Assembly: GCA_020053375.1 (NCBI GenBank)
Contig: JAGVNG010000026.1
Coordinates: 1-25,613 of the forward strand
Direction of reading: 5' to 3'
Length of the DNA: 25,613 nt
DNA from: Nanobdellota archaeon
GTDB lineage: Archaea; Nanobdellota; Nanobdellia; Pacearchaeales; GW2011-AR1
Shown: in pieces, positions 8,523 to 24,579 of the stretch
Position numbering within the stretch: the stretch's first letter is position 1
Layout: every line of letters starts with the position of its first letter
The notes under the pieces: generated by a model
Databases searched by the model: none
What the model was told of the DNA's origin: nothing
Seen by the model: only the letters and a program-made list of their open reading frames with translations
Translations under genes and position numbers: made by a program

Positions 8523-10268
8523 CTATCTAAACCAAGCCAAAATTTTCTGTATAATATTTCCTTCTATGCATTGATTTGAGACGCATATATTAGTTCCACA
8601 CTCAAAGTTATTGTCACAGGCTTCTCCGCTTTCTAGTTGTGGACTCCAGGTTCCCCCAACAGCACAATAATTTTCTCCCTTCCTGTTATTGTATGGATAA
8701 CATTTCCCGTTGAGAGAGCAGCCGGAGTCACAGACTGGTGGAACTGCCGTTGTATATTTTTTTATGGTAACCCAGGCGCTTTCTCCAGTGCCCATAAATG
8801 TTATGATATATCTCTTACCATCAACATCTATTACACCGCTTCCTTCTGTGCTGAATGTTGTTTCATATATTTCGCCAGTCATGATATCTTTGAACTTTAC
8901 TCTATCGTTTGTTATAGCGCTTGTGCCAGTTGTCTGGTTGTAAACGTCATATAACATAAGGATACGATTGCCTAAAGTTATATTATCACCAACATTTAAA
9001 TCAAAACTAATCTTATTCCCTGTTTCTTTCACTGTTGCCAAACTTATCCTAAACACAACACTCAAATATCCATTATTTTCATCAGCTTCCTTAACATAAA
9101 CACTGAGTCCATTAACCTCTTTGGTTGCTCCCCCGTTAATTTCTTTTGTAACCCCCTGTCCGCCAGTCGTTGTTACTTCAATCGTTGCCGCAGTATCAGA
9201 CGCGGATAATAATTCTACTTCATAACTAAAATTGTTGAAAGTAACCATTGTTTTGGTATTGTTTGAATCAAGGCAGGTATAACCAGCTTCACATTCTACT
9301 GTCCCAGATATTCCAGATACAAAACTCAACCTTAAAGTAGCGCTCAAAAATAAGTTTGTTTCATCAGCACTTGTGACAGCCACATTTAATCCCTGAATTT
9401 CCTTAGTTTCTAATTCCCTAACTTCTTTTGTCTGGCTCGCTCCTCCATTTGTAACTTTAATTGTAGCAGAGGTATCAGAAGCTGAGATTAACTCAACCTG
9501 ATAAGTATAATTGTTGAAAACAACTGTTGTGATTTTATTGCTGGAATTAAGGCTGATATTTTTATATACTGTTTCTCTCACACAAGCCCCATCAAGACAG
9601 CCGTTGGGGCAATTATAATATTCAAATTGCGGACTATTATCTATCTCACAATATTGTTCTATCAATGTCGGGCCAGTTTCAGAGAGGCTAGAATTTAATG
9701 GATTAGTTCCATCCATACAAGAATCATCTCCTGTTGAATTTATACCACCAATACCCTTTGCAATTACAGTTCCTAATTTATAATAATTCTTTCCGCCATC
9801 ACTATCCGTGCAGGTTTGAACCGTTGTTTCCAAGCTTAACCCCAGCACAACCTTCAAAAATCCATTGTTTTCATCAGCACTTTTAACATAAACATTCAAC
9901 CCTCCGATTTTTTTGGTTGCTCCCTCATCGACTTCTTTTGTCTCGCTATTAACTTTTATAGTCGCTGTAGTATCAGAAGCGGAAATCAAACTCACAACAT
10001 AACTAGCACCATCAACAAACACTCTTTTGCCTAAATTATTTGAATCCAAACAAGTATATCCCTCTTCACATTGTGTTGTTCCATCCACAGGGTTGTTAGA
10101 ATCTTCAACAATCGCTACCTGACCGGTGATTTTATTCCAAAAATCATTAAACCATCCAGCAGAAACCAAGCTTAAAGATAATATTAAAATTATAGACACA
10201 GAAAACATAACCAACGACCTCTTTTCCATTCCTATGGAAAACGAGCGAACCCGTGAGCCTCTTTTCAT
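8523..10268 (-). CDS. secreted Cys-rich surface protein with three ~60-aa internal repeats
   Basis: N-terminal signal/anchor (an alternative start at M14 gives MEKRSLVMFSVSIILILSLSLVSAG). The repeat (Y)xVxL(I/L)SASDT(T/S/A)ATI(K/E)V...KE(V/I)...GL(N/S)V(Y/A)V(K/T)(S/E)ADE(N/T)N occurs three times. Cys-rich modules lie between the repeats and at the C-terminus. Confidence 0.85.
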   Translation of the reverse strand: MKRGSRVRSFSIGMEKRSLVMFSVSIILILSLSLVSAGWFNDFWNKITGQVAIVEDSNNPVDGTTQCEEGYTCLDSNNLGKRVFVDGASYVVSLISASDTTATIKVNSETKEVDEGATKKIGGLNVYVKSADENNGFLKVVLGLSLETTVQTCTDSDGGKNYYKLGTVIAKGIGGINSTGDDSCMDGTNPLNSSLSETGPTLIEQYCEIDNSPQFEYYNCPNGCLDGACVRETVYKNISLNSSNKITTVVFNNYTYQVELISASDTSATIKVTNGGASQTKEVRELETKEIQGLNVAVTSADETNLFLSATLRLSFVSGISGTVECEAGYTCLDSNNTKTMVTFNNFSYEVELLSASDTAATIEVTTTGGQGVTKEINGGATKEVNGLSVYVKEADENNGYLSVVFRISLATVKETGNKISFDLNVGDNITLGNRILMLYDVYNQTTGTSAITNDRVKFKDIMTGEIYETTFSTEGSGVIDVDGKRYIITFMGTGESAWVTIKKYTTAVPPVCDSGCSLNGKCYPYNNRKGENYCAVGGTWSPQLESGEACDNNFECGTNICVSNQCIEGNIIQKILAWFR

Positions 10269-10743: not shown

Positions 10744-10966
10744 TCTCTATTTTTTTCAATTCTTTTAATGTTATGTCTTTGCTCCTTGTTCTGGATAAGG
10801 TAAAAAATCTTTCAAGCGCGTCTTTAGTATCTTCTTTCTTTATTTTTACTTCTTTATCCCCGATTTCGAAAATCACTTCATTTCCCTTTTGCAGGTTTAA
10901 CATCTTCCGGATATCGCTTGGGATAACTACCTGCCCTTTTTCTCCAATAAATCTTTTAATAATCAT
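10721..10966 (-). CDS. vapB: AbrB/SpoVT-type antitoxin (VapB-like)
   Basis: 81 aa. The N-terminal swapped-hairpin pattern GEKGQVVIPSDIRKMLNLQKGNEVIFEI is typical of AbrB/MazE-fold antitoxins. It lies immediately upstream of, and overlaps, the PIN gene. Confidence 0.8.
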   Translation of the reverse strand: MIIKRFIGEKGQVVIPSDIRKMLNLQKGNEVIFEIGDKEVKIKKEDTKDALERFFTLSRTRSKDITLKELKKIENESYDLP

Positions 10967-11097: not shown

Positions 11098-11835
11098 TTA
11101 ATCTTCAGTCTCAACTCTTGGAGCAAGGACAAACTTCAGTTCCATAAACTCGTTTCTGAATTCAAGCTTTAGTGGATGGTCATTTGCAAATTCAAGAAGG
11201 CTTTTGTCGCACAGCTTTGCTCCCTTTGTGAATTTTTGCAAATATTCAAGGCTGTATTTTGACCTGCAATTTTCCGCCTTTATTCTTGCCTCATCTCCGG
11301 AGAACTCCGCCCTTGCGGAATTCAGTCCCTTTGCCTCTATTATGAACTTCTCGTTCTCTATTATGAAGGAACAGGAGTCAGACACAATCGAGCAGTCTTC
11401 TATTGAGTCAACAAAGTCTATGGAATTCAGCTCGACAGAGGAAGAAAATTCCATTCTCTCGGTTTTTGATTTGAAGTCTATGTCATTGCCTTCGATGTCT
11501 ATAAGGCTCAGGACAAAGTTTCTTTTTATCCTGTCTCGAATCTGTATTTCAAGCGTATTTTCCTTTTTTTCCATCAGCAAAGAGCTTCCCGACCCGCACC
11601 TCTTTAGTATTTGTTTTAGGTTATCCAGATTTACCCCCAGAGTCTCTGCTCCAGCCTCAAATCTTGAGAAGGATTTTTTTGGAAGCTTGAACCCGACAAG
11701 GGACACGTTTGCAGGATCCATCGCAGTTATGCTCAATCCCGACTCATCCACCTTTATCCTCACCTCATTCACAAGCTCGGATATTATCTCAACAATTCTT
11801 GATAATACAGCTGGATTCTGCAGTTCTATTAACAT
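11098..11835 (-). CDS. pcn: DNA polymerase sliding clamp (PCNA)
   Basis: 245 aa. Length, N-terminal pattern (LSRIVEIISELVNEVRIKVDESGLSITAMDPANVSLV) and overall layout are typical of archaeal PCNA. Confidence 0.93.
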   Translation of the reverse strand: MLIELQNPAVLSRIVEIISELVNEVRIKVDESGLSITAMDPANVSLVGFKLPKKSFSRFEAGAETLGVNLDNLKQILKRCGSGSSLLMEKKENTLEIQIRDRIKRNFVLSLIDIEGNDIDFKSKTERMEFSSSVELNSIDFVDSIEDCSIVSDSCSFIIENEKFIIEAKGLNSARAEFSGDEARIKAENCRSKYSLEYLQKFTKGAKLCDKSLLEFANDHPLKLEFRNEFMELKFVLAPRVETED

Positions 11836-12390: not shown

Positions 12391-13755
12391 ATGGAAAATC
12401 AAAACAAGGAAGAAACAAGCGAAAAAGAAGAAAGAATAAGGAAAATAACCCTTGTGTATTATTCAAGGCCTGAAATTCAAAGGGCAATCTTCGATTTTGC
12501 GCAGAACAGGGAGACTATCCCGAAATACTTTGAAGGCTTTGGAAAAAGGCCAGACATGCTTCAATATGCCAATGATGTTTTTGAATTTGCAAAAAAAGGA
12601 GCAACTTCATTTAACTGCTCAGAGGAAATATGGAAAGACCCTTTGAAGCTTTCAACTGGCTTGAATGAAAAACAATTAAATGAACTAAGGACTGGCTGGG
12701 ACCTGCTTATTGATATAGACAGCAAATACCTAGATTACAGCAAAGTCATGGCAGAACTGGTTGTCAAGATGCTCAATCTGCATGGAGTGAATAATATAGG
12801 AATAAAGTTCAGCGGAAGCAAAGGATTTCATATCATTGTTCCATGGAAAGCATTTCCCAACGAGATAAACGAAGTAAGGACTTCGGAGATGTTCCCAAAA
12901 TATCCAAGAATTATCCTGAAATATATAACAGACAGAATTAAACCAGAGTTAATCAAGAGAATAACCTCAATTTCAACTTCCAATAAATATGTCAAGGATT
13001 TTCAGGCTCCCAAAGAGGTTATTCCCGACATGATTCTTGTTTCTCCCAGGCATCTTTTTCGAACTCCATACTCATTACATGAAAAAACATCTCTTTCAAG
13101 CGTTGTTTTGACCTTGGAGGAACTGAAAGCCTTCAGTCCAAGGGATGCAGACCCCTTTAAGGTTAAAGTCAGAAACTTTATTCCCGACTCGGCAGAAGGG
13201 GAGGCATCGAGATTATTGATGCAGGCGCTTGATTGGCACAAGGAAAACAATCCCAATGAAGAGGAAAGCAAGAATTATGAGGCAAAAACCTACAAACCGA
13301 TAAAATTGGAGAAAATTTCAGATGAATATTTCCCACCATCCATAAAAAAAATCCTGCAAGGCTTATCTGACGGAAGAAAGAGGGCACTGTTTGTTTTGCT
13401 GAATCTTTTTCGTTCAATAGGAATGGAAAGGGATGAACTGGAAAAAAGAATTTACGAATGGAACAATAAAAATGCTGTCTCATTGAAGGAAGGCTACATA
13501 AAATCCCAGATATTGTGGAGTTACAGAAACAAGATAGTTCCTCCTCCAAACTACGACAAGGATTACTACAAGGGCATAGGGGTGATTCCCACAGAAGAGG
13601 AAATGAGATACAAAAATCCTGTAAATTACGTAGCCAAAAAAACTTTGAGCGAAAGAAAATCCGAGAACAAAAAGGTTGATAAAAAAACACAAAACAAAGA
13701 CGATGAGAGTGAAAAAAAAGATTTTGATGGCTCTGGCAAAATGAAAAAAGGATAA
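12391..13755 (+). CDS. priS: archaeo-eukaryotic DNA primase: PriS catalytic domain fused to a PriL-CTD-like helical domain, plus a Lys-rich tail
   Basis: AEP motifs DLLIDIDS (DxD), SGSKGFHIIVPW and RTPYSLHEKT. The C-terminal YFPPSIKKILQGLSDGRKRALFVLLNLFRSIGMERDEL...IVPPPNY resembles the PriL C-terminal domain with its Cys ligands replaced. The whole protein contains only one Cys. Confidence 0.9.
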   Translation: MENQNKEETSEKEERIRKITLVYYSRPEIQRAIFDFAQNRETIPKYFEGFGKRPDMLQYANDVFEFAKKGATSFNCSEEIWKDPLKLSTGLNEKQLNELRTGWDLLIDIDSKYLDYSKVMAELVVKMLNLHGVNNIGIKFSGSKGFHIIVPWKAFPNEINEVRTSEMFPKYPRIILKYITDRIKPELIKRITSISTSNKYVKDFQAPKEVIPDMILVSPRHLFRTPYSLHEKTSLSSVVLTLEELKAFSPRDADPFKVKVRNFIPDSAEGEASRLLMQALDWHKENNPNEEESKNYEAKTYKPIKLEKISDEYFPPSIKKILQGLSDGRKRALFVLLNLFRSIGMERDELEKRIYEWNNKNAVSLKEGYIKSQILWSYRNKIVPPPNYDKDYYKGIGVIPTEEEMRYKNPVNYVAKKTLSERKSENKKVDKKTQNKDDESEKKDFDGSGKMKKG

Positions 13756-13837: not shown

Positions 13838-14506
13838 ATGGAAACAGCAACTAAAAAACAAGGAATTGTTTATACTCAACCAAGCGAAGGTTTTTGGGAT
13901 GTTCCCGGAGTTTTGTATAGAGGAAAAACAGGAACTTACAGGCTTTTTGAGCAAATGACTTCTGCTATGAATCAGGAACAGCTTGCTGAACTTTATGAAA
14001 CTGAAAAGCAAAAAGGAAACCCACATCCAACAGATGCGCCTTTAATCTTGGCAATTGCTTCCGTGGCGCATTCCTCAAGAGATGAAAATCCTCAAGACAC
14101 TGAAAGATTAAGACAGTTTCTTAGAACGAGCTTCAGAAAATATCCAAATACTTTAACAAGAATTGCTTATGAGCCTTCAGGAAAAGATAAAATTATTCAC
14201 AATTACAAAACTTCAGATGAATATTCAATTGAAGAAAGTGTTGTTGGTCCTGATGGTTTGATGAATGAAATTTCCAATAAAAAAGTATTAGAATCACTTC
14301 TCGGAACAAGTAATGTGACTCAAATTAATGCAGTATCTCAATGGATTAATGGAACCGATAGCTATATTTGGAGATTAAATTCAAAACCTTCAAAAAAAGA
14401 TGAAAGAGTTGCCAGGTTCGACGCCGCCGGCGGCAGGTTCGGCCTTTTCTGCCTCAGGTTTTCTCGTGATGGGTGTCCTGCTTTTCGGGTATTGAAGGTT
14501 GATTAG
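13838..14506 (+). CDS. DGR variable (target) protein, paralog 1; C-terminal variable region
   Basis: 222 aa, roughly 75% identical by eye to 21182..21862. The last ~28 codons align to the TR at 22230-22313 with adenine-specific mismatches. No signal peptide or TM helix is visible. Confidence 0.85.
   Translation: METATKKQGIVYTQPSEGFWDVPGVLYRGKTGTYRLFEQMTSAMNQEQLAELYETEKQKGNPHPTDAPLILAIASVAHSSRDENPQDTERLRQFLRTSFRKYPNTLTRIAYEPSGKDKIIHNYKTSDEYSIEESVVGPDGLMNEISNKKVLESLLGTSNVTQINAVSQWINGTDSYIWRLNSKPSKKDERVARFDAAGGRFGLFCLRFSRDGCPAFRVLKVD
14408..14491 (+). repeat. DGR variable repeat VR1
   Basis: Hand alignment to the TR shows differences at 19 of 25 TR adenines and at only 1 of 59 non-A positions (ctc->ctt). 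Confidence 0.85.
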
Positions 14507-14527
14507 GCGGTTTGTTTTGCTCGCCAG
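14477..14527 (+). repeat. 51-nt block identical behind both VRs (A-free TR-matching end, gene 3' end, GC hairpin ggcgg-N-ctcgcc); copy 1
   Basis: cctgcttttcgggtattgaaggttgattaggcggtttgttttgctcgccag is identical at 21833-21883, although the paralogs diverge elsewhere. Confidence 0.8.
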
Positions 14528-14600
14528 AATGAGTTAAGCAATAAAAATATTTCTAAGAGAAATTCAAAAACACCTCAAAAATAGCTTTTTATCTGAGAAA

Positions 14601-14631: not shown

Positions 14632-16509
14632 ATGAAAAGCAAGGTGGTGTTATCTTTAGTATTTTCTTTGTTTCTGATATTCTTTCTGTCAAACATCTCA
14701 GCAGGATTAAATACCACCCAGATTAATAATGGTTACAGCTGTTTGCAGAACAAAACAGCAAATTGCTCAACCTCGCTGGATGATAATATATTCACGCTTT
14801 TGTCAATGCAAACATGCAAGAGTCAGGTTTTGCAGGCTTCGTCCAATGAAACATGCTGGCCAAAGGGCACATGCAATGTGAAGCAGACAGCGCAGGCTCT
14901 TCTTGCGCTGAGAGAATCTGGTTCGTCCGCGTCCAAGGCAGAGAATTGGTTAATCTCCAAAAACAGGACGACTCAAGATATAGAATGGTATCTGCAGATA
15001 GAAAGCAACGAGGCCACAACATGCTCTATATCTTATGGCTCTGCGAATTCAATTTCTATTTCAATAGATGCAGACAAAACAATAAGAGCAAATGGGGATT
15101 TGGGAGACTGCCTTTCCTTGGCGCAGGATAATTACTGGCTGGCAATAGCTCCTTCTCCGCAATGCCAGAAATATGAATATACTATTTCCTGCGACAAGAA
15201 TTTTATCACCAGCACCCTGTTTAAAAAGCAGGATTCAGAGGTGATTAATGTCGGTGAAAAAATTCATTCAGCTTCTTCTTCACCTTCTTCAAAAGGAACT
15301 ACCACAGAGAAAATTAATTCATTATGTTTTGCAGACGGACAAACATGCAACTATGAAGGAACTTTGTGGGCTTCGCTTGTTCTTAATTTAATGGACAAGG
15401 ATGTTTCCCCATATATTCCTTATCTTGTCACAATGGCGGACAGCTATCCAGGAACTCTTCCAGAAGCTTTCCTTTACATGCTTCTCGGAGACGATTATAA
15501 AAATGATTTGTTGCTTAAGCAGAAAAGCAATCAGTATTGGGAAGCATCAGGAAACAAATATTATGGCACCGCTCTCGCCCTCCTTGCTCTGCAGTCAGAT
15601 GATGCCTCGACGGCGAAAACAAATGCTCTCGACTGGCTTGGGGACACGCAGGGAAAAAACGGATGCTGGCAGGATAATATAAAAAACACGGCATTTTTGC
15701 TTTACGCAATTTCTCCTGGAGCAGGATTTAACGGTGGAGACGGTGGAGACGATGGAACTGGCGGAGACGGAAACGGTGATAACAGCACCTCTGGTCTGGA
15801 CTGTGAAGATAATGGTTATTATTGCATGTCCATTTACAGCTGCAATAATAATGCAGGAGGAAATGTTCTTGACGATTATGAGTGCTCTTCAGGATGGAAT
15901 AATAAATGCTGCGACAAGCCAAAACAAACCTCCACATGTTCAGAGCAGGGAGGAGAAATCTGCAGCGGAAACGAACAGTGTGTTGAAGGAACAGTTGCAG
16001 ATGCTTCTGACAGCGGGTTGGGAGAGTGCTGTGTTGGAGGAGAATGTGTTCCTGGAGGAGATGACGGAGGGACAGAGAATTCCTGCGAAACAAGCGGGGG
16101 AATATGCAAATCATTTGAATGTGGAAGCGGAGAGGAATCAGACACTTCTCTTGACTGCGATGCTCCATCAGAGGTATGCTGTGTGCAGGCTCAAACTTCC
16201 TCCTTAACTGGCTCATTGTGGATATGGATTATATTGGCTTTGATAGTCCTGTTGATTCTTATGATTGTGTTTAGGGATGGACTAAGAAGATTCTGGCTGT
16301 ATGCGAAGACGATGTTCAAGCCTTCCGGGCCATCTGGAGGCGGAGGGGCGCATTATAATTCATCTTACTTTGGAGCGCCGATGAGAAGGTTTGCTCCGCG
16401 AAGAATACTGCCGTCCGCAGGACCGACACATCACGGACCAACTCCAGCAAGAAGAGCAGGCGGAGAATTAGATGATGTTTTGAAGAAGCTGAAAGATATG
16501 AGTAGATAA
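14632..16509 (+). CDS. secreted, C-terminally anchored protein with alpha/alpha-toroid (prenyltransferase/terpene-cyclase-like) repeats, a Gly/Asp linker and three Cys-rich modules
   Basis: Signal peptide MKSKVVLSLVFSLFLIFFLSNISAG. Repeat-like QTAQALLALRESG, YYGTALALLALQS and NGCWQDNIKNTAFLLYAI. Linker GGDGGDDGTGGDGNGDN. The Cys-rich modules each contain a CC pair. TM helix LWIWIILALIVLLILMIVF followed by a basic, Pro-rich tail. Confidence 0.8.
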   Translation: MKSKVVLSLVFSLFLIFFLSNISAGLNTTQINNGYSCLQNKTANCSTSLDDNIFTLLSMQTCKSQVLQASSNETCWPKGTCNVKQTAQALLALRESGSSASKAENWLISKNRTTQDIEWYLQIESNEATTCSISYGSANSISISIDADKTIRANGDLGDCLSLAQDNYWLAIAPSPQCQKYEYTISCDKNFITSTLFKKQDSEVINVGEKIHSASSSPSSKGTTTEKINSLCFADGQTCNYEGTLWASLVLNLMDKDVSPYIPYLVTMADSYPGTLPEAFLYMLLGDDYKNDLLLKQKSNQYWEASGNKYYGTALALLALQSDDASTAKTNALDWLGDTQGKNGCWQDNIKNTAFLLYAISPGAGFNGGDGGDDGTGGDGNGDNSTSGLDCEDNGYYCMSIYSCNNNAGGNVLDDYECSSGWNNKCCDKPKQTSTCSEQGGEICSGNEQCVEGTVADASDSGLGECCVGGECVPGGDDGGTENSCETSGGICKSFECGSGEESDTSLDCDAPSEVCCVQAQTSSLTGSLWIWIILALIVLLILMIVFRDGLRRFWLYAKTMFKPSGPSGGGGAHYNSSYFGAPMRRFAPRRILPSAGPTHHGPTPARRAGGELDDVLKKLKDMSR

Positions 16510-21181: not shown

Positions 21182-21862
21182 ATGGAAAACACAGCAAAAG
21201 AATCAGAAATTATTTATGAAAATCCTGTTATAACTTGGGAAAGTGAGAAACGTTTTCTGGTCTCTAATGTTGCTTACAAAGGACAAACAGGAACTTACAG
21301 ACTTTTTGAGCAAATGACTCCTGCAATGAACCAAGAACAGCTTACAAAACTTTATGAAACTGAAAAACAAAAAGGAAATCCTCATCCAACAGATGCTCCG
21401 CTGATTTGGGCTATTGCCACAAAAAGCCATGAACTTAGAAATCAAAATCCAGAAGTTTCTGAAAAATTAAGGCAATTTTTTAGGACTGGCTTCAGAAAAT
21501 ATCCAAATACCTTAACAAGAATTGCTTATGAGCCTTCAGGAAAAGATAAAATAATTCACAACTACAGGACTTCAGATGAATATTCAATAGATGCAGAAGT
21601 TGTTGGTTCAGAGGGTTTTGTTCAAGACATTCCTAACAAAAAAGTTTTGGAAGCACTTTTAGGAACACAAGATGTTTCCCAAATAAATGCAGTTTCACAA
21701 TGGATTAATGGAACAAATAGTTTTCTTTGGAGATTAAATTCAAAACCTTCAAAAAAAGATGAAAGAGTTGCCTGGTTCGTCGCCAACGACAACGTGTTCC
21801 TCCTCTGCCTCAGGGGTTCTCTTGATGGGTATCCTGCTTTTCGGGTATTGAAGGTTGATTAG
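21182..21862 (+). CDS. DGR variable (target) protein, paralog 2; C-terminal variable region
   Basis: 226 aa, paralog of 13838..14506. The C-terminal codons align to the TR with adenine-focused mismatches. No signal peptide or TM helix is visible. Confidence 0.85.
   Translation: MENTAKESEIIYENPVITWESEKRFLVSNVAYKGQTGTYRLFEQMTPAMNQEQLTKLYETEKQKGNPHPTDAPLIWAIATKSHELRNQNPEVSEKLRQFFRTGFRKYPNTLTRIAYEPSGKDKIIHNYRTSDEYSIDAEVVGSEGFVQDIPNKKVLEALLGTQDVSQINAVSQWINGTNSFLWRLNSKPSKKDERVAWFVANDNVFLLCLRGSLDGYPAFRVLKVD
21767..21847 (+). repeat. DGR variable repeat VR2
   Basis: Hand alignment to the TR shows 14 changed adenines, 1 non-A change (agg->gtg) and one AAC codon missing. aacgacaac is retained identical to the TR. 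Confidence 0.8.
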
Positions 21863-21883
21863 GCGGTTTGTTTTGCTCGCCAG
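21833..21883 (+). repeat. 51-nt post-VR conserved block with GC hairpin; copy 2
   Basis: Identical to 14477-14527. Confidence 0.8.
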
Positions 21884-22229
21884 TTTGGTTGAGCATGCCA
21901 ACAACAAAAAATTTAAACCAATCATTCTTTCATAAATAGCCCAAAAAGTTTTCTTCCTCAAACATTTTCAGTATGAGCAACTGGAAACGCAAGAAGAAAG
22001 CTGGATGGACTACACGCCGATTAACCAGCACATTATTCAAATTTATTTTAAGTCATAAAATTCAATCGCGACATCAAGTAAGGTTGATTTTATCCTACGG
22101 GAGAATTAACTGCAGGCAAGCAATTGTTTGCAATGAAAAATGAAGCGATGGTGCTTCCTTTATATTTTTGTCATGCAAGAATATATTGATGAGAAGGCTC
22201 TTTTTTAGAGAGGTTAATTGACTACATCA

Positions 22230-22313
22230 AGTTGCCAGGTTCAACGCCAACGACAACAGGTTCAACCTCAACTGCAACAGGAATTCTCATAATGGGTATC
22301 CTGCTTTTCGAAT
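22230..22313 (+). other. DGR template repeat (TR), non-coding
   Basis: gttgccaggttcAACgccAACgacAACaggttcAACctcAACtgcAACaggAATtctcatAATgggtatcctgcttttcgaata. An in-frame TGA sits at 22218-22220 just upstream. There is no homology to the target genes outside the VR. Every VR-variable position is an A in this copy. Confidence 0.85.
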
Positions 22314-22356
22314 AGTCTGTCCTTGGGCATTCTTGTTACTCATAGAATTATAAAAT

Positions 22357-23835: not shown

Positions 23836-24579
23836 TTAACTTATTAGTCTTTTTGAAATAAAAAACCCGAAAATTCCCAAGAAAAATAAAATAATTCCAA
23901 GAAAATTAGAACCACTCTTATCTAAATTTCCAATAATATTTCCTGTTAAGTTTGGAGATAAAAGAAACAAACTAAAAATAAAAAGAGAAATAAAGACACC
24001 TAAAACAACTTTTTCTTCAAGAGATTTCTTTTTGGGTATTCCTCTATTTCTATTTTTAATATATCCTCCGAAATTTTTAATATCTATTTTTGAACCTAAA
24101 ATATGAATTTGAGAGCTTTCAAAAGGAATAATTGTATTTTGATACCCCCCTTCATCAGAAATAATTGAATCATGCTTTTCTTGCATTGCCAAAACTTTAT
24201 CAATTTCCACATCATTACTGTTTACAATATCTTCAATATAGCTTGGAGATCTTATATCCAAAACTAAAGGATAAATTTTATTCATGGTATTATACCTTTT
24301 AAACACATTTAGGAAATTAATATTCTTGGTAGTAAACAGGCCTTTTGATATTTCTTGTTTTATTCTAAATTTTAAATTCCCTCTCGGTGTCCAGTTGGAT
24401 ATTGTGTCAAAATTATCTAATTTATTTTTTTTGCTTCCATGGTAAACAATTTCTCTAACCTTACTTTCTGGAAAAATAGTTTTAAGGTATTCTAAATAGT
24501 CCTCTTTTGTTCCTATCTTACCTAACTCTGGATTTTGTTGAAAAACAAAATCAACCTGTTTTTTTGAATATCCTTTCAT
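23836..24579 (-). CDS. hypothetical membrane-anchored protein (soluble N-domain plus 2 C-terminal TM helices)
   Basis: 247-aa ORF. TM helices VVLGVFISLFIFSLFLL and FLGIILFFLGIFGFFI. The N-domain has VYHGS...F, GLFTT and later Glu residues, faintly reminiscent of H-Y-E ADP-ribosyltransferases (speculative). Confidence 0.55.
   Translation of the reverse strand: MKGYSKKQVDFVFQQNPELGKIGTKEDYLEYLKTIFPESKVREIVYHGSKKNKLDNFDTISNWTPRGNLKFRIKQEISKGLFTTKNINFLNVFKRYNTMNKIYPLVLDIRSPSYIEDIVNSNDVEIDKVLAMQEKHDSIISDEGGYQNTIIPFESSQIHILGSKIDIKNFGGYIKNRNRGIPKKKSLEEKVVLGVFISLFIFSLFLLSPNLTGNIIGNLDKSGSNFLGIILFFLGIFGFFISKRLIS

What the first reader, a model, noticed from the sequence alone, without database searches (positions are those of the whole stretch)
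22230..22313. Non-coding AAC-rich template repeat of a diversity-generating retroelement (DGR)
An 84-nt segment in a ~495-bp gene-free gap aligns codon for codon with the 3' ends of two paralogous genes (14408-14491 and 21767-21847), all on the + strand. The homology starts and stops abruptly. An in-frame TGA lies 10 nt upstream, and nothing outside the VR matches, so this is not a truncated third gene copy.

The segment contains 25 adenines, mostly in six AAC and two AAT codons.
- VR1 differs at 19 of the 25 adenines and at only 1 of 59 non-A positions.
- VR2 differs at 14 adenines, at 1 non-A position, and lacks one AAC codon.
- Every position where VR1 and VR2 differ from each other, apart from those two non-A changes and the missing codon, is an A in this copy.

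Adenine-specific template-to-variable-region mismatch with AAY codons is the defining signature of DGR mutagenic retrohoming, as in the Bordetella phage BPP-1 Mtd paradigm. DGRs have been reported in DPANN-type archaea.
Basis: partly seen in the sequence, partly recalled or inferred. Interest (0 to 1): 0.9.

Follow-up and report, generated by a model that had tools for sequence, protein, structure and literature searches.

The report
DGR template RNA lacking its RT
This non-coding stretch is the master template of a diversity-generating retroelement that rewrites the tips of two paralogous proteins in a tiny DPANN archaeon, but it lies inside a structured RNA gene with no reverse transcriptase gene on the contig, so the enzyme probably acts from elsewhere.

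Summary
Window 22230-22313 matches the 3' ends of two paralogous genes. VR1 differs at 19 of 25 template adenines and 1 of 59 other bases; VR2 at 14 of 23 and 1 of 58.

It is a DGR template repeat (TR), with three additions.

1. The TR is the 3' part of a ~390-nt RNA gene. Rfam RT-16, a motif of unassigned function, ends exactly where the TR starts. About 100 related DPANN loci share this layout.
2. In about three quarters of those loci a DGR reverse transcriptase (RT) gene starts 7-45 nt after the TR. Here there is none, and the window is the whole 25.6-kb contig. The window belongs to a recurrent RT-less sublineage tied to one ~220-aa target family. Near-identical strains of sister cassettes differ almost only at TR-adenine positions of the VR, so an RT probably acts in trans. 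That RT was not found.
3. The apical loop of the RNA's first hairpin (GAGCAA) is complementary to a conserved motif (TTGCTC) about 30 nt downstream of both VRs. Five kinds of compensatory change across loci support this pairing. The function of this pairing is inferred, not shown.

This is a known kind of element in a new variant.

The parts
21912..21917 (+). TTTAAA box, a candidate archaeal TATA-like promoter element of the RNA gene, about 25 nt upstream of the RNA leader
   Evidence: TTTAAA occurs upstream of the RNA in 52 of 80 non-redundant loci, against 17% of control windows. It peaks 70-79 nt before CTACACG. In the window the distance is 98 nt, because the first hairpin is longer. Its function as a promoter is inferred.
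21939..21944 (+). RNA leader GCCCAA, the 5' strand of the outer closing helix (helix A). It pairs with TTGGGC at 22323-22328.
   Evidence: Leader and post-TR segments are complementary in related loci, with different sequences: GUCCUGA/UCAGGAC, GUCUUAG/CUAAGAC, GUUCUGG/CCAGAAC, GCCCA/UGGGC. Duplex energy is -16.8 kcal/mol for true partners and -12.4 for permuted partners.
21948..22001 (+). First hairpin (P1) of the RNA. Its apical hairpin spans 21965-21987, with loop sequence GAGCAA at 21975-21980.
   Evidence: Read. The loop is complementary to TTGCTC downstream of both VRs. Compensatory loop/flank variants occur in 7 loci, of 5 types.
21955..22230 (+). Match to Rfam RT-16 RNA (RF03019). This is the structured 5' domain of the DGR RNA and ends at the first base of the TR.
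   Evidence: 75.4 bits against a gathering score of 50; E = 2.7e-10 for the window search; full model 1-158 matched. The window keeps 32 of 32 consensus non-TR base pairs of the RT-less group.
22003..22016 (+). GGATGGA followed by the invariant CTACACG. This is the 5' strand of the inner closing helix (helix B). It pairs with the TR 3' end and the bases after it (22309-22322).
   Evidence: RNAalifold on 16 RT-less RNAs predicts GGAUGGACUA/UAGUCUGUCC plus CG/CG. Among 75 non-redundant loci, position 2 is AT in 41 and GC in 25, and position 5 is TA in 39 and AT in 20. Paired fractions are 0.85-0.97, against 0.49-0.70 for permuted partners.
22230..22313 (+). Template repeat (TR). The variable part runs from 22230 to about 22298. 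The invariant 3' part is CCTGCTTTTCG (22300-22310), followed by AATAG.
   Evidence: Six AAC and two AAT codons in the VR frame.
22313..22328 (+). Post-TR segment. TAGTCTGTCC is the 3' strand of helix B and TTGGGC (22323-22328) is the 3' strand of helix A. A T-rich stretch follows (22330-22336).
   Evidence: In most RT-less relatives this segment ends in GGGCATTTTT, a possible oligo-T terminator. The terminator role is inferred.
14407..14490 (+). Variable repeat 1 (VR1), at the 3' end of target gene 1
   Evidence: 19 of 25 TR adenines differ and 1 of 59 non-A.
21766..21846 (+). Variable repeat 2 (VR2), at the 3' end of target gene 2. It lacks one codon.
   Evidence: 14 of 23 TR adenines differ and 1 of 58 non-A.
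13838..14506 (+). Target gene 1 (222 aa), 7.7 kb from the TR. It has no signal peptide or Pfam family and ends ..PAFRVLKVD.
   Evidence: The same lone-target locus (TrxR-PCNA-primase-target) is conserved in L165.
21182..21862 (+). Target gene 2 (226 aa), immediately upstream of the RNA gene
   Evidence: AlphaFold2 model has mean pLDDT 90. The top Foldseek PDB hit is 5ioo_A, the C-type lectin fold DGR variable protein of Nanoarchaeota: E = 0.028, probability 0.87, TM 0.41-0.43.
14487..14527 (+). Conserved 3' flank of VR1, 41 nt and 100% identical to the flank of VR2. It contains the stop codon and the motif TTGCTC at 14517-14522.
   Evidence: The paralogs are about 80-85% identical in the gene body. 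They are identical here, and similarity ends abruptly at 14528. The motif is complementary to the P1 loop.
21843..21883 (+). Conserved 3' flank of VR2, containing TTGCTC at 21873-21878

Best explanation
Window 22230-22313 is the template repeat of a diversity-generating retroelement in a DPANN (Nanoarchaeota/Woesearchaeota-type) archaeon.

It is not free-standing. It is the 3' portion of a non-coding RNA gene of about 390 nt (about 21939-22330, + strand) with these parts:
- a TATA-like box;
- a 5' structured domain equal to Rfam RT-16;
- the TR;
- a short 3' tail that folds back onto the 5' end.

The fold-back pairs the invariant CUACACG with the TR's 3' end CGAAUAG. This likely forms the site where cDNA synthesis starts.

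A DGR reverse transcriptase copies the TR into cDNA, misincorporating opposite adenines. The cDNA replaces the homologous 3' ends of two paralogous ~220-aa genes that probably have a C-type lectin fold. VR2 is adjacent and VR1 is 7.7 kb away.

Unlike most relatives, this cassette has no RT gene after the TR. It belongs to a recurrent RT-less 'satellite' lineage of target-plus-RNA modules that most likely depends on an RT encoded elsewhere, acting in trans.

Target sites are probably marked by two features:
- the TR/VR homology, with a fixed GG (VR) versus AA (TR) difference at the 3' end;
- base pairing between the apical loop of the RNA's first hairpin (GAGCAA) and a motif (TTGCTC) about 30 nt downstream of each VR.

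Shown: the TR/VR signature, RT-16 membership, the RNA helices with covariation, absence of an RT from the contig, VR-confined variation in sister cassettes, and loop/flank covariation.

Inferred: transcription of the RNA, the priming site, a trans RT in this genome, current activity in this genome, and the function of the loop/flank pairing.
For: 1. A-specific mismatches: 19/25 against 1/59 and 14/23 against 1/58, p = 1e-12 and 6e-9.

2. RT-16 match of 75.4 bits (gathering score 50) ending at the TR start. All 19 genome loci and most metagenome loci fetched with an RT-16 core pattern have an AAC-rich segment ending ..AATAG right after RT-16. Cognate VRs lie in upstream genes. Pooled, 678 of 1221 A positions and 26 of 2317 non-A positions are mismatched in RT-linked loci.

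3. In 72 loci a PF00078 RT with the DGR motifs LGNLTSQFFAN and YVDDF starts 7-45 nt after the TR.

4. RT-less class:
- 18 loci have at least 400 nt after the TR and no RT (two of them, L150 and L151, are probably false positives). 12 of these, plus 4 contig-end cases, carry the window's target family. Only 3 of 72 RT-linked loci hit that family, at 32-47% identity.
- No RT homologue at E<1e-3 in 202 kb around such cassettes and targets.
- No PF00078 on 12 further contigs (8 of them over 10 kb) carrying the target family.
- Nothing in the window.

5. Evidence that RT-less cassettes are active:
- 90%-identity clusters P0026 (4 members), P0004 (9) and P0002 (5 of its 6 members read) vary mainly in the VR-coded ~30 aa. 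The P0004 and P0026 clusters are otherwise identical apart from one to three residues in a few members.
- L083 and L160 are 99.3% identical over 3.9 kb with identical TRs. They have 16 VR differences, 14 at TR-A positions.
- In MAG GCA_043810695.1 one TR matches an adjacent VR and a VR on another contig, each with 0 of 57 non-A mismatches.
- The TRs of the window, L031 and L011 differ at 13 positions. At most of these each genome's VR follows its own TR, with two exceptions.

6. The RNA is intact in the window: 32 of 32 consensus pairs, with 11 pairs showing compensatory change within the RT-less group.

7. Closing helices show covariation. They resemble the upstream/downstream 'cPRT Stop' duplex of the Bordetella phage DGR RNA.

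8. Loop/flank complementarity with compensatory variants: CAGCAA/TTGCTG, UAGCA/TGCTA, GAGUAA/TTACTC, GGACA/TGTCC, GAACAA/TTGTTC. In a permutation test 1 of 5000 shuffles reached the observed pairing.

9. Both VR flanks in the window are 100% identical for 41 nt, against about 80-85% in the gene bodies.

10. Target fold: top PDB match is 5ioo.
Against: - No RT was found. The window is the whole contig, so a trans RT in this genome is an assumption.
- RT-less VRs are on average slightly more diverged from their TR at non-A sites: 29/506 against 26/2317, Mann-Whitney p = 0.008.
- One MAG (JAYENS01) carries a truncated RT (L027) together with a degraded RT-less cassette (L012: 27 of 32 pairs kept and 7 of 43 non-A mismatches). 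Decay after RT loss therefore does happen.
- No reads are available to show variation in this particular population.
- The fold match to 5ioo is weak (E = 0.028, TM about 0.42).
- The loop/flank test rests on motif extraction that I partly guided. An unguided apical-loop test was only modestly positive: 24% of cognate and 11.5% of non-cognate pairs had matches of 6 nt or more.
- About half of the RT-16 loci lack the motif and instead have a GC hairpin after the VR.
- Transcription, priming site and terminator are untested.
Confidence: 0.75

Rival explanations
1. Relic cassette. The lineage once had a linked RT, as in L020, and lost it. TR, RNA and VRs are fossils that no longer exchange information in this genome.
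For: - No RT on the 25.6-kb contig.
- L027 shows an RT truncated to its C-terminal third. L012, from the same MAG, shows a degraded RNA and a diverged VR.
- RT-less VRs have a higher non-A mismatch rate overall.
Against: - The window's VRs differ from the TR at only 1/59 and 1/58 non-A positions, while the paralog bodies are 15-20% diverged.
- The RNA keeps 32 of 32 consensus pairs.
- The RT-less arrangement with this target family recurs in 12 or more distinct genomes, with compensatory changes in the RNA.
- Sister cassettes vary almost only at TR-A positions between near-identical strains.
Confidence: 0.18
2. The RT comes from outside the genome, for example from a virus, a plasmid or the host cell on which the DPANN archaeon lives. 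The chromosomal cassettes would then be satellites of a mobile or foreign DGR.
For: - No RT in about 200 kb of sequence around RT-less cassettes and lone targets.
- None of 12 further contigs with the target family carries PF00078.
Against: - A scan of IMG/VR with the RT-16 core pattern returned 5 contigs, and none had RT-16 above the gathering score.
- RT-linked RT-16 loci sit among housekeeping genes of the same kind of MAGs.
- 25 kb is a small part of a genome, so a chromosomal RT elsewhere is the simpler reading.
Confidence: 0.06
3. Not a retroelement. The segment would be a truncated third paralog, or a gene-conversion tract, whose differences happen to fall on adenines.
For: The segment is homologous to the 3' ends of two paralogs, and an in-frame stop lies just upstream.
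Against: - Fisher p = 1e-12 and 6e-9 for the restriction of mismatches to A.
- An Rfam RT-16 match abuts the segment.
- The same architecture sits next to DGR RTs in about 70 loci.
Confidence: 0.01

Closest known systems
DGRs of Nanoarchaeota/DPANN archaea, with their C-type-lectin variable proteins (PDB 5ioo, 'Accommodation of massive sequence variation in Nanoarchaeota by the C-type lectin fold')
   Same: - Same host group and an adenine-specific TR/VR relation.
- The VR sits at the C-terminal end of a small ~210-230-aa protein ending in a ..P.FR.. motif.
- The target model's best structural match is 5ioo_A.
- The RTs of sister loci are PF00078 with the DGR LGxxxSQ motif.
   Different: - No RT gene is linked to the TR here or in the sublineage.
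- The target has no detectable sequence similarity to solved structures.
- I could not read the primary DPANN DGR survey (Paul et al. 2017, not held). RT-less cassettes or the RT-16 link may be mentioned there.
Bordetella phage BPP-1 DGR (mtd-avd-TR-brt), the reference system
   Same: - A-to-N mutagenesis with AAY codons.
- A fixed asymmetry at the 3' end, like IMH (VR) against IMH* (TR).
- The TR is embedded in a structured RNA whose upstream and downstream segments pair. The 'cPRT Stop' duplex is described in bioRxiv 10.1101/2023.10.23.563531.
- TR, avd and brt are known to work in trans from a plasmid, and remote targets are known (PMC5758913).
   Different: - No conserved avd-sized gene lies between target, RNA and RT in the relatives. 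No profile search for Avd was run.
- The large structured domain is 5' of the TR (RT-16), not 3' of it (the Sp region, Rfam RT-10).
- There is no RT in the cassette.
- In this subclass there is no GC hairpin after the VR. A short motif complementary to an RNA loop is found instead.
Rfam RF03019, RT-16 RNA motif (Weinberg et al. 2017, PMC5737381)
   Same: The window matches the full model above the gathering score. The authors found RT motifs near RT genes and speculated that some belong to DGRs.
   Different: - The paper links only RT-10 to a DGR, and I found no paper that assigns a role to RT-16. Here RT-16 directly abuts a TR in every locus examined.
- The Rfam model stops before the TR, so it misses the closing helices formed with the post-TR tail.
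- In about one locus in five there is no RT gene nearby.
Group II intron EBS/IBS target recognition. This is an analogy only.
   Same: Short loops of a retroelement RNA base-pair with 5-7 nt of the sense strand at the DNA target. DGR RTs are said to be related to group II intron RTs; this is my own knowledge and was not tested here.
   Different: - No ribozyme and no reverse splicing.
- The pairing here is inferred from covariation alone.
- The partner could be the target mRNA rather than DNA.

Membership tests
Diversity-generating retroelement (DGR) | A TR/VR repeat pair whose mismatches are essentially confined to adenines of the TR | tested here: met
   19/25 A against 1/59 non-A for VR1, and 14/23 against 1/58 for VR2. 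Fisher p = 1e-12 and 6e-9.
Diversity-generating retroelement (DGR) | A DGR-clade reverse transcriptase gene (PF00078 with I/LGxxxSQ and YxDD motifs) belonging to the element | tested here: not met
   - No RVT domain in any ORF of the window.
- No YxDD or GxxxSQ motif in a plausible context in any of six frames.
- tblastn with 9 sister RTs found nothing.
- The window is the whole contig, so the rest of the genome is untested.
- The feature is met in 72 homologous loci.
Diversity-generating retroelement (DGR) | The VR lies at the 3' end of a protein-coding target, usually in a C-type lectin (or Ig) fold that tolerates variation | tested here: inconclusive
   Both VRs are the last ~28 codons of their ORFs. 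The model has pLDDT 90. The top PDB match is the Nanoarchaeota C-type lectin DGR protein 5ioo_A, but at E = 0.028, probability 0.87 and TM 0.41-0.43.
Diversity-generating retroelement (DGR) | A directional asymmetry at the 3' end of the repeats (IMH in the VR, IMH* in the TR) | tested here: met
   TR ..TTTTCGAATAG against VR ..TTTTCGGGTAT. The AA/GG difference is fixed in nearly all of the ~70 related pairs examined. That it works like IMH is inferred.
Diversity-generating retroelement (DGR) | Ongoing or recent diversification: VR polymorphism confined to TR-A positions within a population | not testable with these tools
   No reads are available for the window's sample. In sister RT-less cassettes the feature is met: differences within the P0026, P0004 and P0002 clusters lie mainly in the VR-coded segment, and 14 of 16 VR differences between L083 and L160 are at TR-A positions.
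Diversity-generating retroelement (DGR) | Accessory protein Avd (present in about 74% of DGRs, not universal) | not tested
   No conserved small ORF lies between target, RNA and RT in sister loci. No Avd profile search was run. Architecture A (TR-RT without an accessory gene) is a recognised class (PMC5758913).
Rfam RT-16 RNA (RF03019) | Covariance-model score at or above the curated gathering score over the full model | tested here: met
   75.4 bits against 50; model positions 1-158 matched; E = 2.7e-10.
Rfam RT-16 RNA (RF03019) | Secondary structure maintained by compensatory changes | tested here: met
   RNAalifold on 16 RT-less members found 11 pairs with changes on both sides. The window forms 32 of 32 non-TR consensus pairs.
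Rfam RT-16 RNA (RF03019) | Location next to a reverse transcriptase gene, the criterion by which the motif was found | tested here: not met
   The next gene after the RNA is lysyl-tRNA synthetase on the opposite strand, 43 nt from the TR.

The most novel reading that the evidence does not exclude
DPANN archaea carry 'satellite' DGR cassettes, each consisting only of a target gene and a ~390-nt RT-16/TR RNA gene. These cassettes are kept diversifying by a reverse transcriptase encoded elsewhere. The RNA itself selects its target sites, including remote ones. It does so through an EBS/IBS-like pairing between the apical loop of its first hairpin and a 6-7-nt motif about 30 nt downstream of each VR. 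This would be an RNA-guided layer of DGR target recognition that has not been described.
Probability: 0.4. Interest if true: 0.85.

Novelty: new variant of a known kind. Interest (0 to 1): 0.64.

Why it matters
DGR surveys start from the RT gene and then look for TR/VR pairs nearby. Cassettes like this one, a TR with no RT for tens of kilobases, are invisible to them. The number of hypervariable proteins in DPANN genomes is therefore probably underestimated.

The work also gives a function to an orphan Rfam motif: RT-16 is the 5' domain of a DGR template RNA. It defines the full RNA, including the fold-back that pairs CUACACG with the TR's 3' end.

If the loop/flank pairing is functional, it would explain how one RNA finds several dispersed targets without an Avd protein or a cruciform. 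It would also offer a programmable handle for engineering DGR-based targeted mutagenesis.

Tried and rejected
1. Extending the contig. Exact look-ups of four window proteins found nothing. One search then showed that the window is the whole 25,613-nt contig.

2. Finding the RT of the same genome. Cluster look-ups gave no accession or locus tag for the window's proteins. The RT family has more than 6,500 members and only 120 are listed, so matching by locus tag was impossible.

3. RT remnants in the gap. The small ORFs of 21863-22356 and tblastn with 9 RTs gave nothing. The gap is filled by the RNA gene.

4. The primase (12391-13755) and the Pol-beta-type nucleotidyltransferase (7359-8195) as alternative polymerases. 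I rejected them. They lie in a conserved housekeeping neighbourhood (TrxR-PCNA-primase, also in L165) and are not conserved next to other cassettes.

5. A conserved protein partner of RT-less cassettes. Clustering ORFs from 18 such loci found nothing shared except the target and two locally syntenic genes.

6. Sequence-level similarity of the target to solved structures: none.

7. Unguided tests of loop/flank pairing. Longest-match searches were swamped by AT-rich chance matches and by overlap of flanks with the next RNA gene. MFE-based apical-loop picking was noisy and gave only a modest signal. I rely on the motif-anchored test and flag it as partly guided.

8. tRNA or tmRNA in the window: none. 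Other Rfam families in the window: none.

9. Paul et al. 2017 (PMC5436926) could not be read. The supplements of Weinberg et al. 2017 are not held.
Full report
**1. The observation**

Window 22230-22313 (+) aligns without gaps to 14407-14490. It aligns with one 3-nt gap to 21766-21846. These are the last ~28 codons of two paralogous ORFs, 13838-14506 (222 aa) and 21182-21862 (226 aa).

- Against VR1, 19 of 25 template adenines differ and 1 of 59 other bases.
- Against VR2, 14 of 23 adenines differ and 1 of 58 other bases.
- Fisher p = 1e-12 and 6e-9.
- In the VR frame the segment reads GTT GCC AGG TTC AAC GCC AAC GAC AAC AGG TTC AAC CTC AAC TGC AAC AGG AAT TCT CAT AAT GGG TAT CCT GCT TTT CGA ATA. 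That gives six AAC and two AAT codons, with every adenine of the variable part at codon position 1 or 2.
- The in-frame TGA is at 22219-22221.

**2. What surrounds it in the window**

The window is archaeal. It encodes a thermosome, PCNA, a primase, thioredoxin reductase, a class II lysyl-tRNA synthetase and RNase H.

No ORF has a reverse transcriptase domain, even at E = 10 for the unassigned ORFs. Six-frame motif scans and tblastn with nine sister RTs found nothing. One search shows the window is the entire 25,613-nt contig, so it cannot be extended.

The 'gene-free gap' is not empty. Rfam RT-16 (RF03019) matches 21955-22230 at 75.4 bits against a gathering score of 50. The full model is matched, and the match ends on the first base of the TR. 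RT-16 is one of 19 'RT motifs' found near RT genes by Weinberg et al. 2017. They assigned only RT-10 to a DGR, the Bordetella phage spacer, and speculated that others might belong to DGRs (PMC5737381).

**3. Related loci**

I scanned the genome and metagenome collections with a pattern from the RT-16 core (CTACACG N15-45 AAGTNATAAAATNCA). This returned 158 loci.

- All 18 archaeal genome loci, plus one binned as a bacterium, score above the RT-16 gathering score. They come from Woesearchaeota/Nanoarchaeota MAGs.
- In every one, RT-16 is followed at once by an AAC-rich segment of 85-95 nt ending ..CGGAATAG.
- Wherever upstream sequence is available, one or more genes end in a copy of that segment that differs almost only at its adenines.
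- Pooled over 58 VRs of RT-linked loci, 678 of 1221 A positions and 26 of 2317 non-A positions are mismatched.

RT-16 is therefore the 5' domain of the template RNA of a large family of DPANN DGRs.

In 72 of about 98 classified loci, an ORF of 335-365 aa starts 7-45 nt after the TR. It carries LGNLTSQFFAN and YVDDF. It is PF00078 and has more than 6,500 homologues at E<1e-40. No conserved small ORF lies between target, RNA and RT. The layout is thus 'TR-RT without accessory gene', Architecture A of Wu et al. 2018.

**4. The RT-less sublineage**

Eighteen loci have at least 400 nt after the TR and no RT. Two of them (L150, L151) are probably false positives and are left out below. One further locus (L027) has only the C-terminal third of an RT.

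The RT-less state is not random:
- 12 of the 18, plus 4 loci cut by a contig end, carry the window's ~220-aa target family. Only 3 of 72 RT-linked loci hit that family, at 32-47% identity.
- Nearly all RT-less loci have a longer RT-16, with 175-251 nt from the core anchor to the TR end against 134-175 nt.
- Their neighbours are unrelated housekeeping genes: tRNA synthetases, SMC, ribosomal proteins, and in L160 RNase P RNA. Nothing but the target is conserved.
- tblastn with the RTs against 202 kb around such cassettes and lone targets gave no hit at E<1e-3.
- Twelve further contigs with the target family, eight of them over 10 kb, have no PF00078.
- Some family members are lone targets with no room for an RNA gene. 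L165 is syntenic with the window's VR1 locus. L159, L163 and L168 are further examples.

MAG GCA_043810695.1 mirrors the window. One TR (L162) matches its adjacent VR and a VR on another contig (L159), each with 0 of 57 non-A mismatches and 13-14 of 23 A mismatches.

**5. Are RT-less cassettes alive?**

Evidence that they are:
- Clusters of target proteins at 90% identity vary mainly in the VR-coded ~30 residues. In the P0004 (9 sequences) and P0026 (4) clusters the first ~190 residues are otherwise identical, apart from one to three residues in a few members. In the P0002 cluster, four members are identical outside the VR, and the representative P0002 also differs from them in a stretch upstream of it.
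- At the DNA level, L083 and L160 are 99.3% identical over 3.9 kb and have identical TRs. They have 16 VR differences, 14 at TR-A positions, and no difference in the 3.4 kb upstream of the VR. L053 and L108 behave the same way.
- The TRs of the window, L031 and L011 differ at 13 positions. At most of these each genome's VR carries its own TR's base, with two exceptions (positions 60 and 63). Information therefore flowed from TR to VR after these RT-less lineages split.
- Within the RT-less group the RNA helices show 11 pairs with changes on both sides. The window forms 32 of 32 consensus pairs.

Evidence that some are not:
- RT-less VRs are on average somewhat more diverged at non-A sites: 29/506 against 26/2317, p = 0.008.
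- The MAG with the truncated RT (L027) has a degraded cassette. L012 keeps 27 of 32 pairs and has 7 of 43 non-A mismatches.

Decay therefore follows RT loss in some genomes. The window, with 1/59 and 1/58 non-A mismatches against 15-20% divergence of the paralog bodies, looks like the live cases.

**6. Anatomy of the RNA**

- *Promoter.* A TTTAAA box lies about 25 nt upstream of the RNA leader in 52 of 80 loci, against 17% of control windows. In the window it is at 21912-21917.
- *Outer closing helix.* The leader (window GCCCAA, 21939-21944) is complementary to a segment after the TR (TTGGGC, 22323-22328). The sequences differ between loci but stay complementary: GUCCUGA/UCAGGAC, GUCUUAG/CUAAGAC, GUUCUGG/CCAGAAC. 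Cognate duplexes average -16.8 kcal/mol against -12.4 for permuted partners.
- *Inner closing helix.* GGAUGGACUA (22003-22012) pairs with UAGUCUGUCC (22313-22322), and CG with CG. The invariant CUACACG thus pairs with the TR's 3' end CGAAUAG. RNAalifold predicted this independently, and it covaries across 75 loci.

The whole RT-16 core and the TR are therefore enclosed by a long-range duplex. This resembles the upstream/downstream 'cPRT Stop' duplex of the Bordetella phage DGR RNA, which its authors predicted in many DGRs. That cDNA synthesis starts at this junction is my inference.

**7. Target-site features**

- Nearly all of the ~70 related VRs examined end ..GGGGTA (..CGGGTA in the window's subclass) where the TR has ..GGAATAG. 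This fixed asymmetry resembles IMH/IMH*.
- In the window, the 41 nt after each VR are 100% identical between the paralogs. They run through the stop codon plus 21 nt, and similarity ends abruptly at 14528/21884.
- That flank contains TTTTGCTCGC. The motif recurs 24-27 nt after the VR end in this subclass, or 33-37 nt when a GC hairpin intervenes. It recurs in both RT-linked and RT-less loci and at remote targets.
- The motif is the reverse complement of the apical loop of the RNA's first hairpin (consensus UUGAGCAAG; window GAGCAA at 21975-21980).
- Where the loop differs, the flank differs in the compensating way: CAGCAA/TTGCTG (L003, L067), UAGCA/TGCTA (L016), GAGUAA/TTACTC (L113), GGACA/TGTCC (L041, L118), GAACAA/TTGTTC (L124).
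- Shuffling loop/flank partners among 27 unique combinations reached the observed pairing in 1 of 5000 trials.

The first hairpin emerges from the junction of the two closing helices, next to the TR's 3' end. A loop docked about 25 nt downstream of the VR would place the start of the cDNA at the VR's 3' boundary. This is a hypothesis. The partner could also be the target mRNA, and an unguided test gave only a modest signal. Other RT-16 loci lack the motif and instead have a GC-rich hairpin with a GAAG loop right after the VR, like the Bordetella phage target.

**8. The targets**

The family has 66 detectable members, no Pfam domain and no signal peptide. The AlphaFold2 model has mean pLDDT 90. 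Its best PDB match is 5ioo_A, the C-type lectin fold variable protein of a Nanoarchaeota DGR (E = 0.028, probability 0.87, TM 0.41-0.43). Other C-type lectins follow. The match is weak but in the expected direction.

**9. Verdict**

This is a DGR template repeat in a DPANN archaeon.

It is a new variant of a known kind, in three respects:
- the TR is part of an RT-16 RNA gene;
- the cassette belongs to a recurrent, apparently active lineage without a linked RT;
- the RNA may help to pick its targets by loop/flank pairing.

What cannot be settled here is whether this particular genome encodes an RT elsewhere, and whether its VRs are varying now.

Noticed in passing
L027:1-600 (MAG JAYENS01, same MAG as L012): RT-16 and TR are followed directly by only the C-terminal third of a DGR RT (aa ~206-351). 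The N-terminal fingers and palm are deleted. The other cassette of this MAG (L012) has the most degraded RNA (27 of 32 pairs) and VR. This looks like a DGR caught in decay.
   Followed up: partly
related loci, e.g. L004, L006, L044, L047, L077, L098, L100: In RT-16 loci whose first hairpin is of the CCUAGCC..GGCUGGG type, the VR is followed at once by a GC-rich hairpin with a GAAG-type loop (e.g. GCGGCGAAGCCGC). This recalls the Bordetella phage target hairpin. These loci lack the TTGCTC motif. There seem to be two alternative ways of marking the 3' boundary of a target.
   Followed up: partly
window 8523-10268 (-): A 581-aa ORF with no Pfam hit contains three diverged internal DNA repeats of about 110-117 nt, spaced about 280-510 nt apart (repeat families D2 and D3). 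It is probably a repeat-domain protein.
   Followed up: no
window 2283-4061 (-) and 4063-5805 (-): Two adjacent large ORFs. The first has several bacterial Ig-like/PKD-type domains. The second has a weak beta-barrel OMP-like hit. They are probably cell-surface proteins of the archaeon.
   Followed up: no
window 12391-13755 (+): A 454-aa protein has a primase small-subunit domain and a weak large-subunit hit in one polypeptide, so it may be a fused PriS-PriL. It lies directly upstream of target gene 1. The same order, TrxR-PCNA-primase-target, is kept in L165.
   Followed up: partly
L160:13839-17183 (-) and 14655-15152: The archaeal 23S rRNA gene next to an RT-less cassette is about 360 nt longer than the model and contains a LAGLIDADG ORF. 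This is probably an rRNA intron with a homing endonuclease. RNase P RNA (11130-11454, -) lies 70 nt from the TR.
   Followed up: no
L020:1883-2404 (oriented coordinates): In one RT-linked locus, a 173-aa ORF overlaps the stop codon of the DGR RT. It is not conserved in the other loci and was not identified.
   Followed up: no
window 23836-24579 (-): A 247-aa ORF has a weak, sub-threshold hit to the ADP-ribosyltransferase domain of polyvalent proteins (PF18760, E = 0.0016).
   Followed up: no
L083 vs L160 (L160:10673-10712 and 10915-10953): Besides the VR, the only other differences between these 99.3%-identical contigs cluster in two places: 6 just after the target's stop codon, and 11 in a variable hairpin of RT-16. 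There are none in the 3.4 kb upstream of the VR. The reason for these secondary hot spots is unknown.
   Followed up: no
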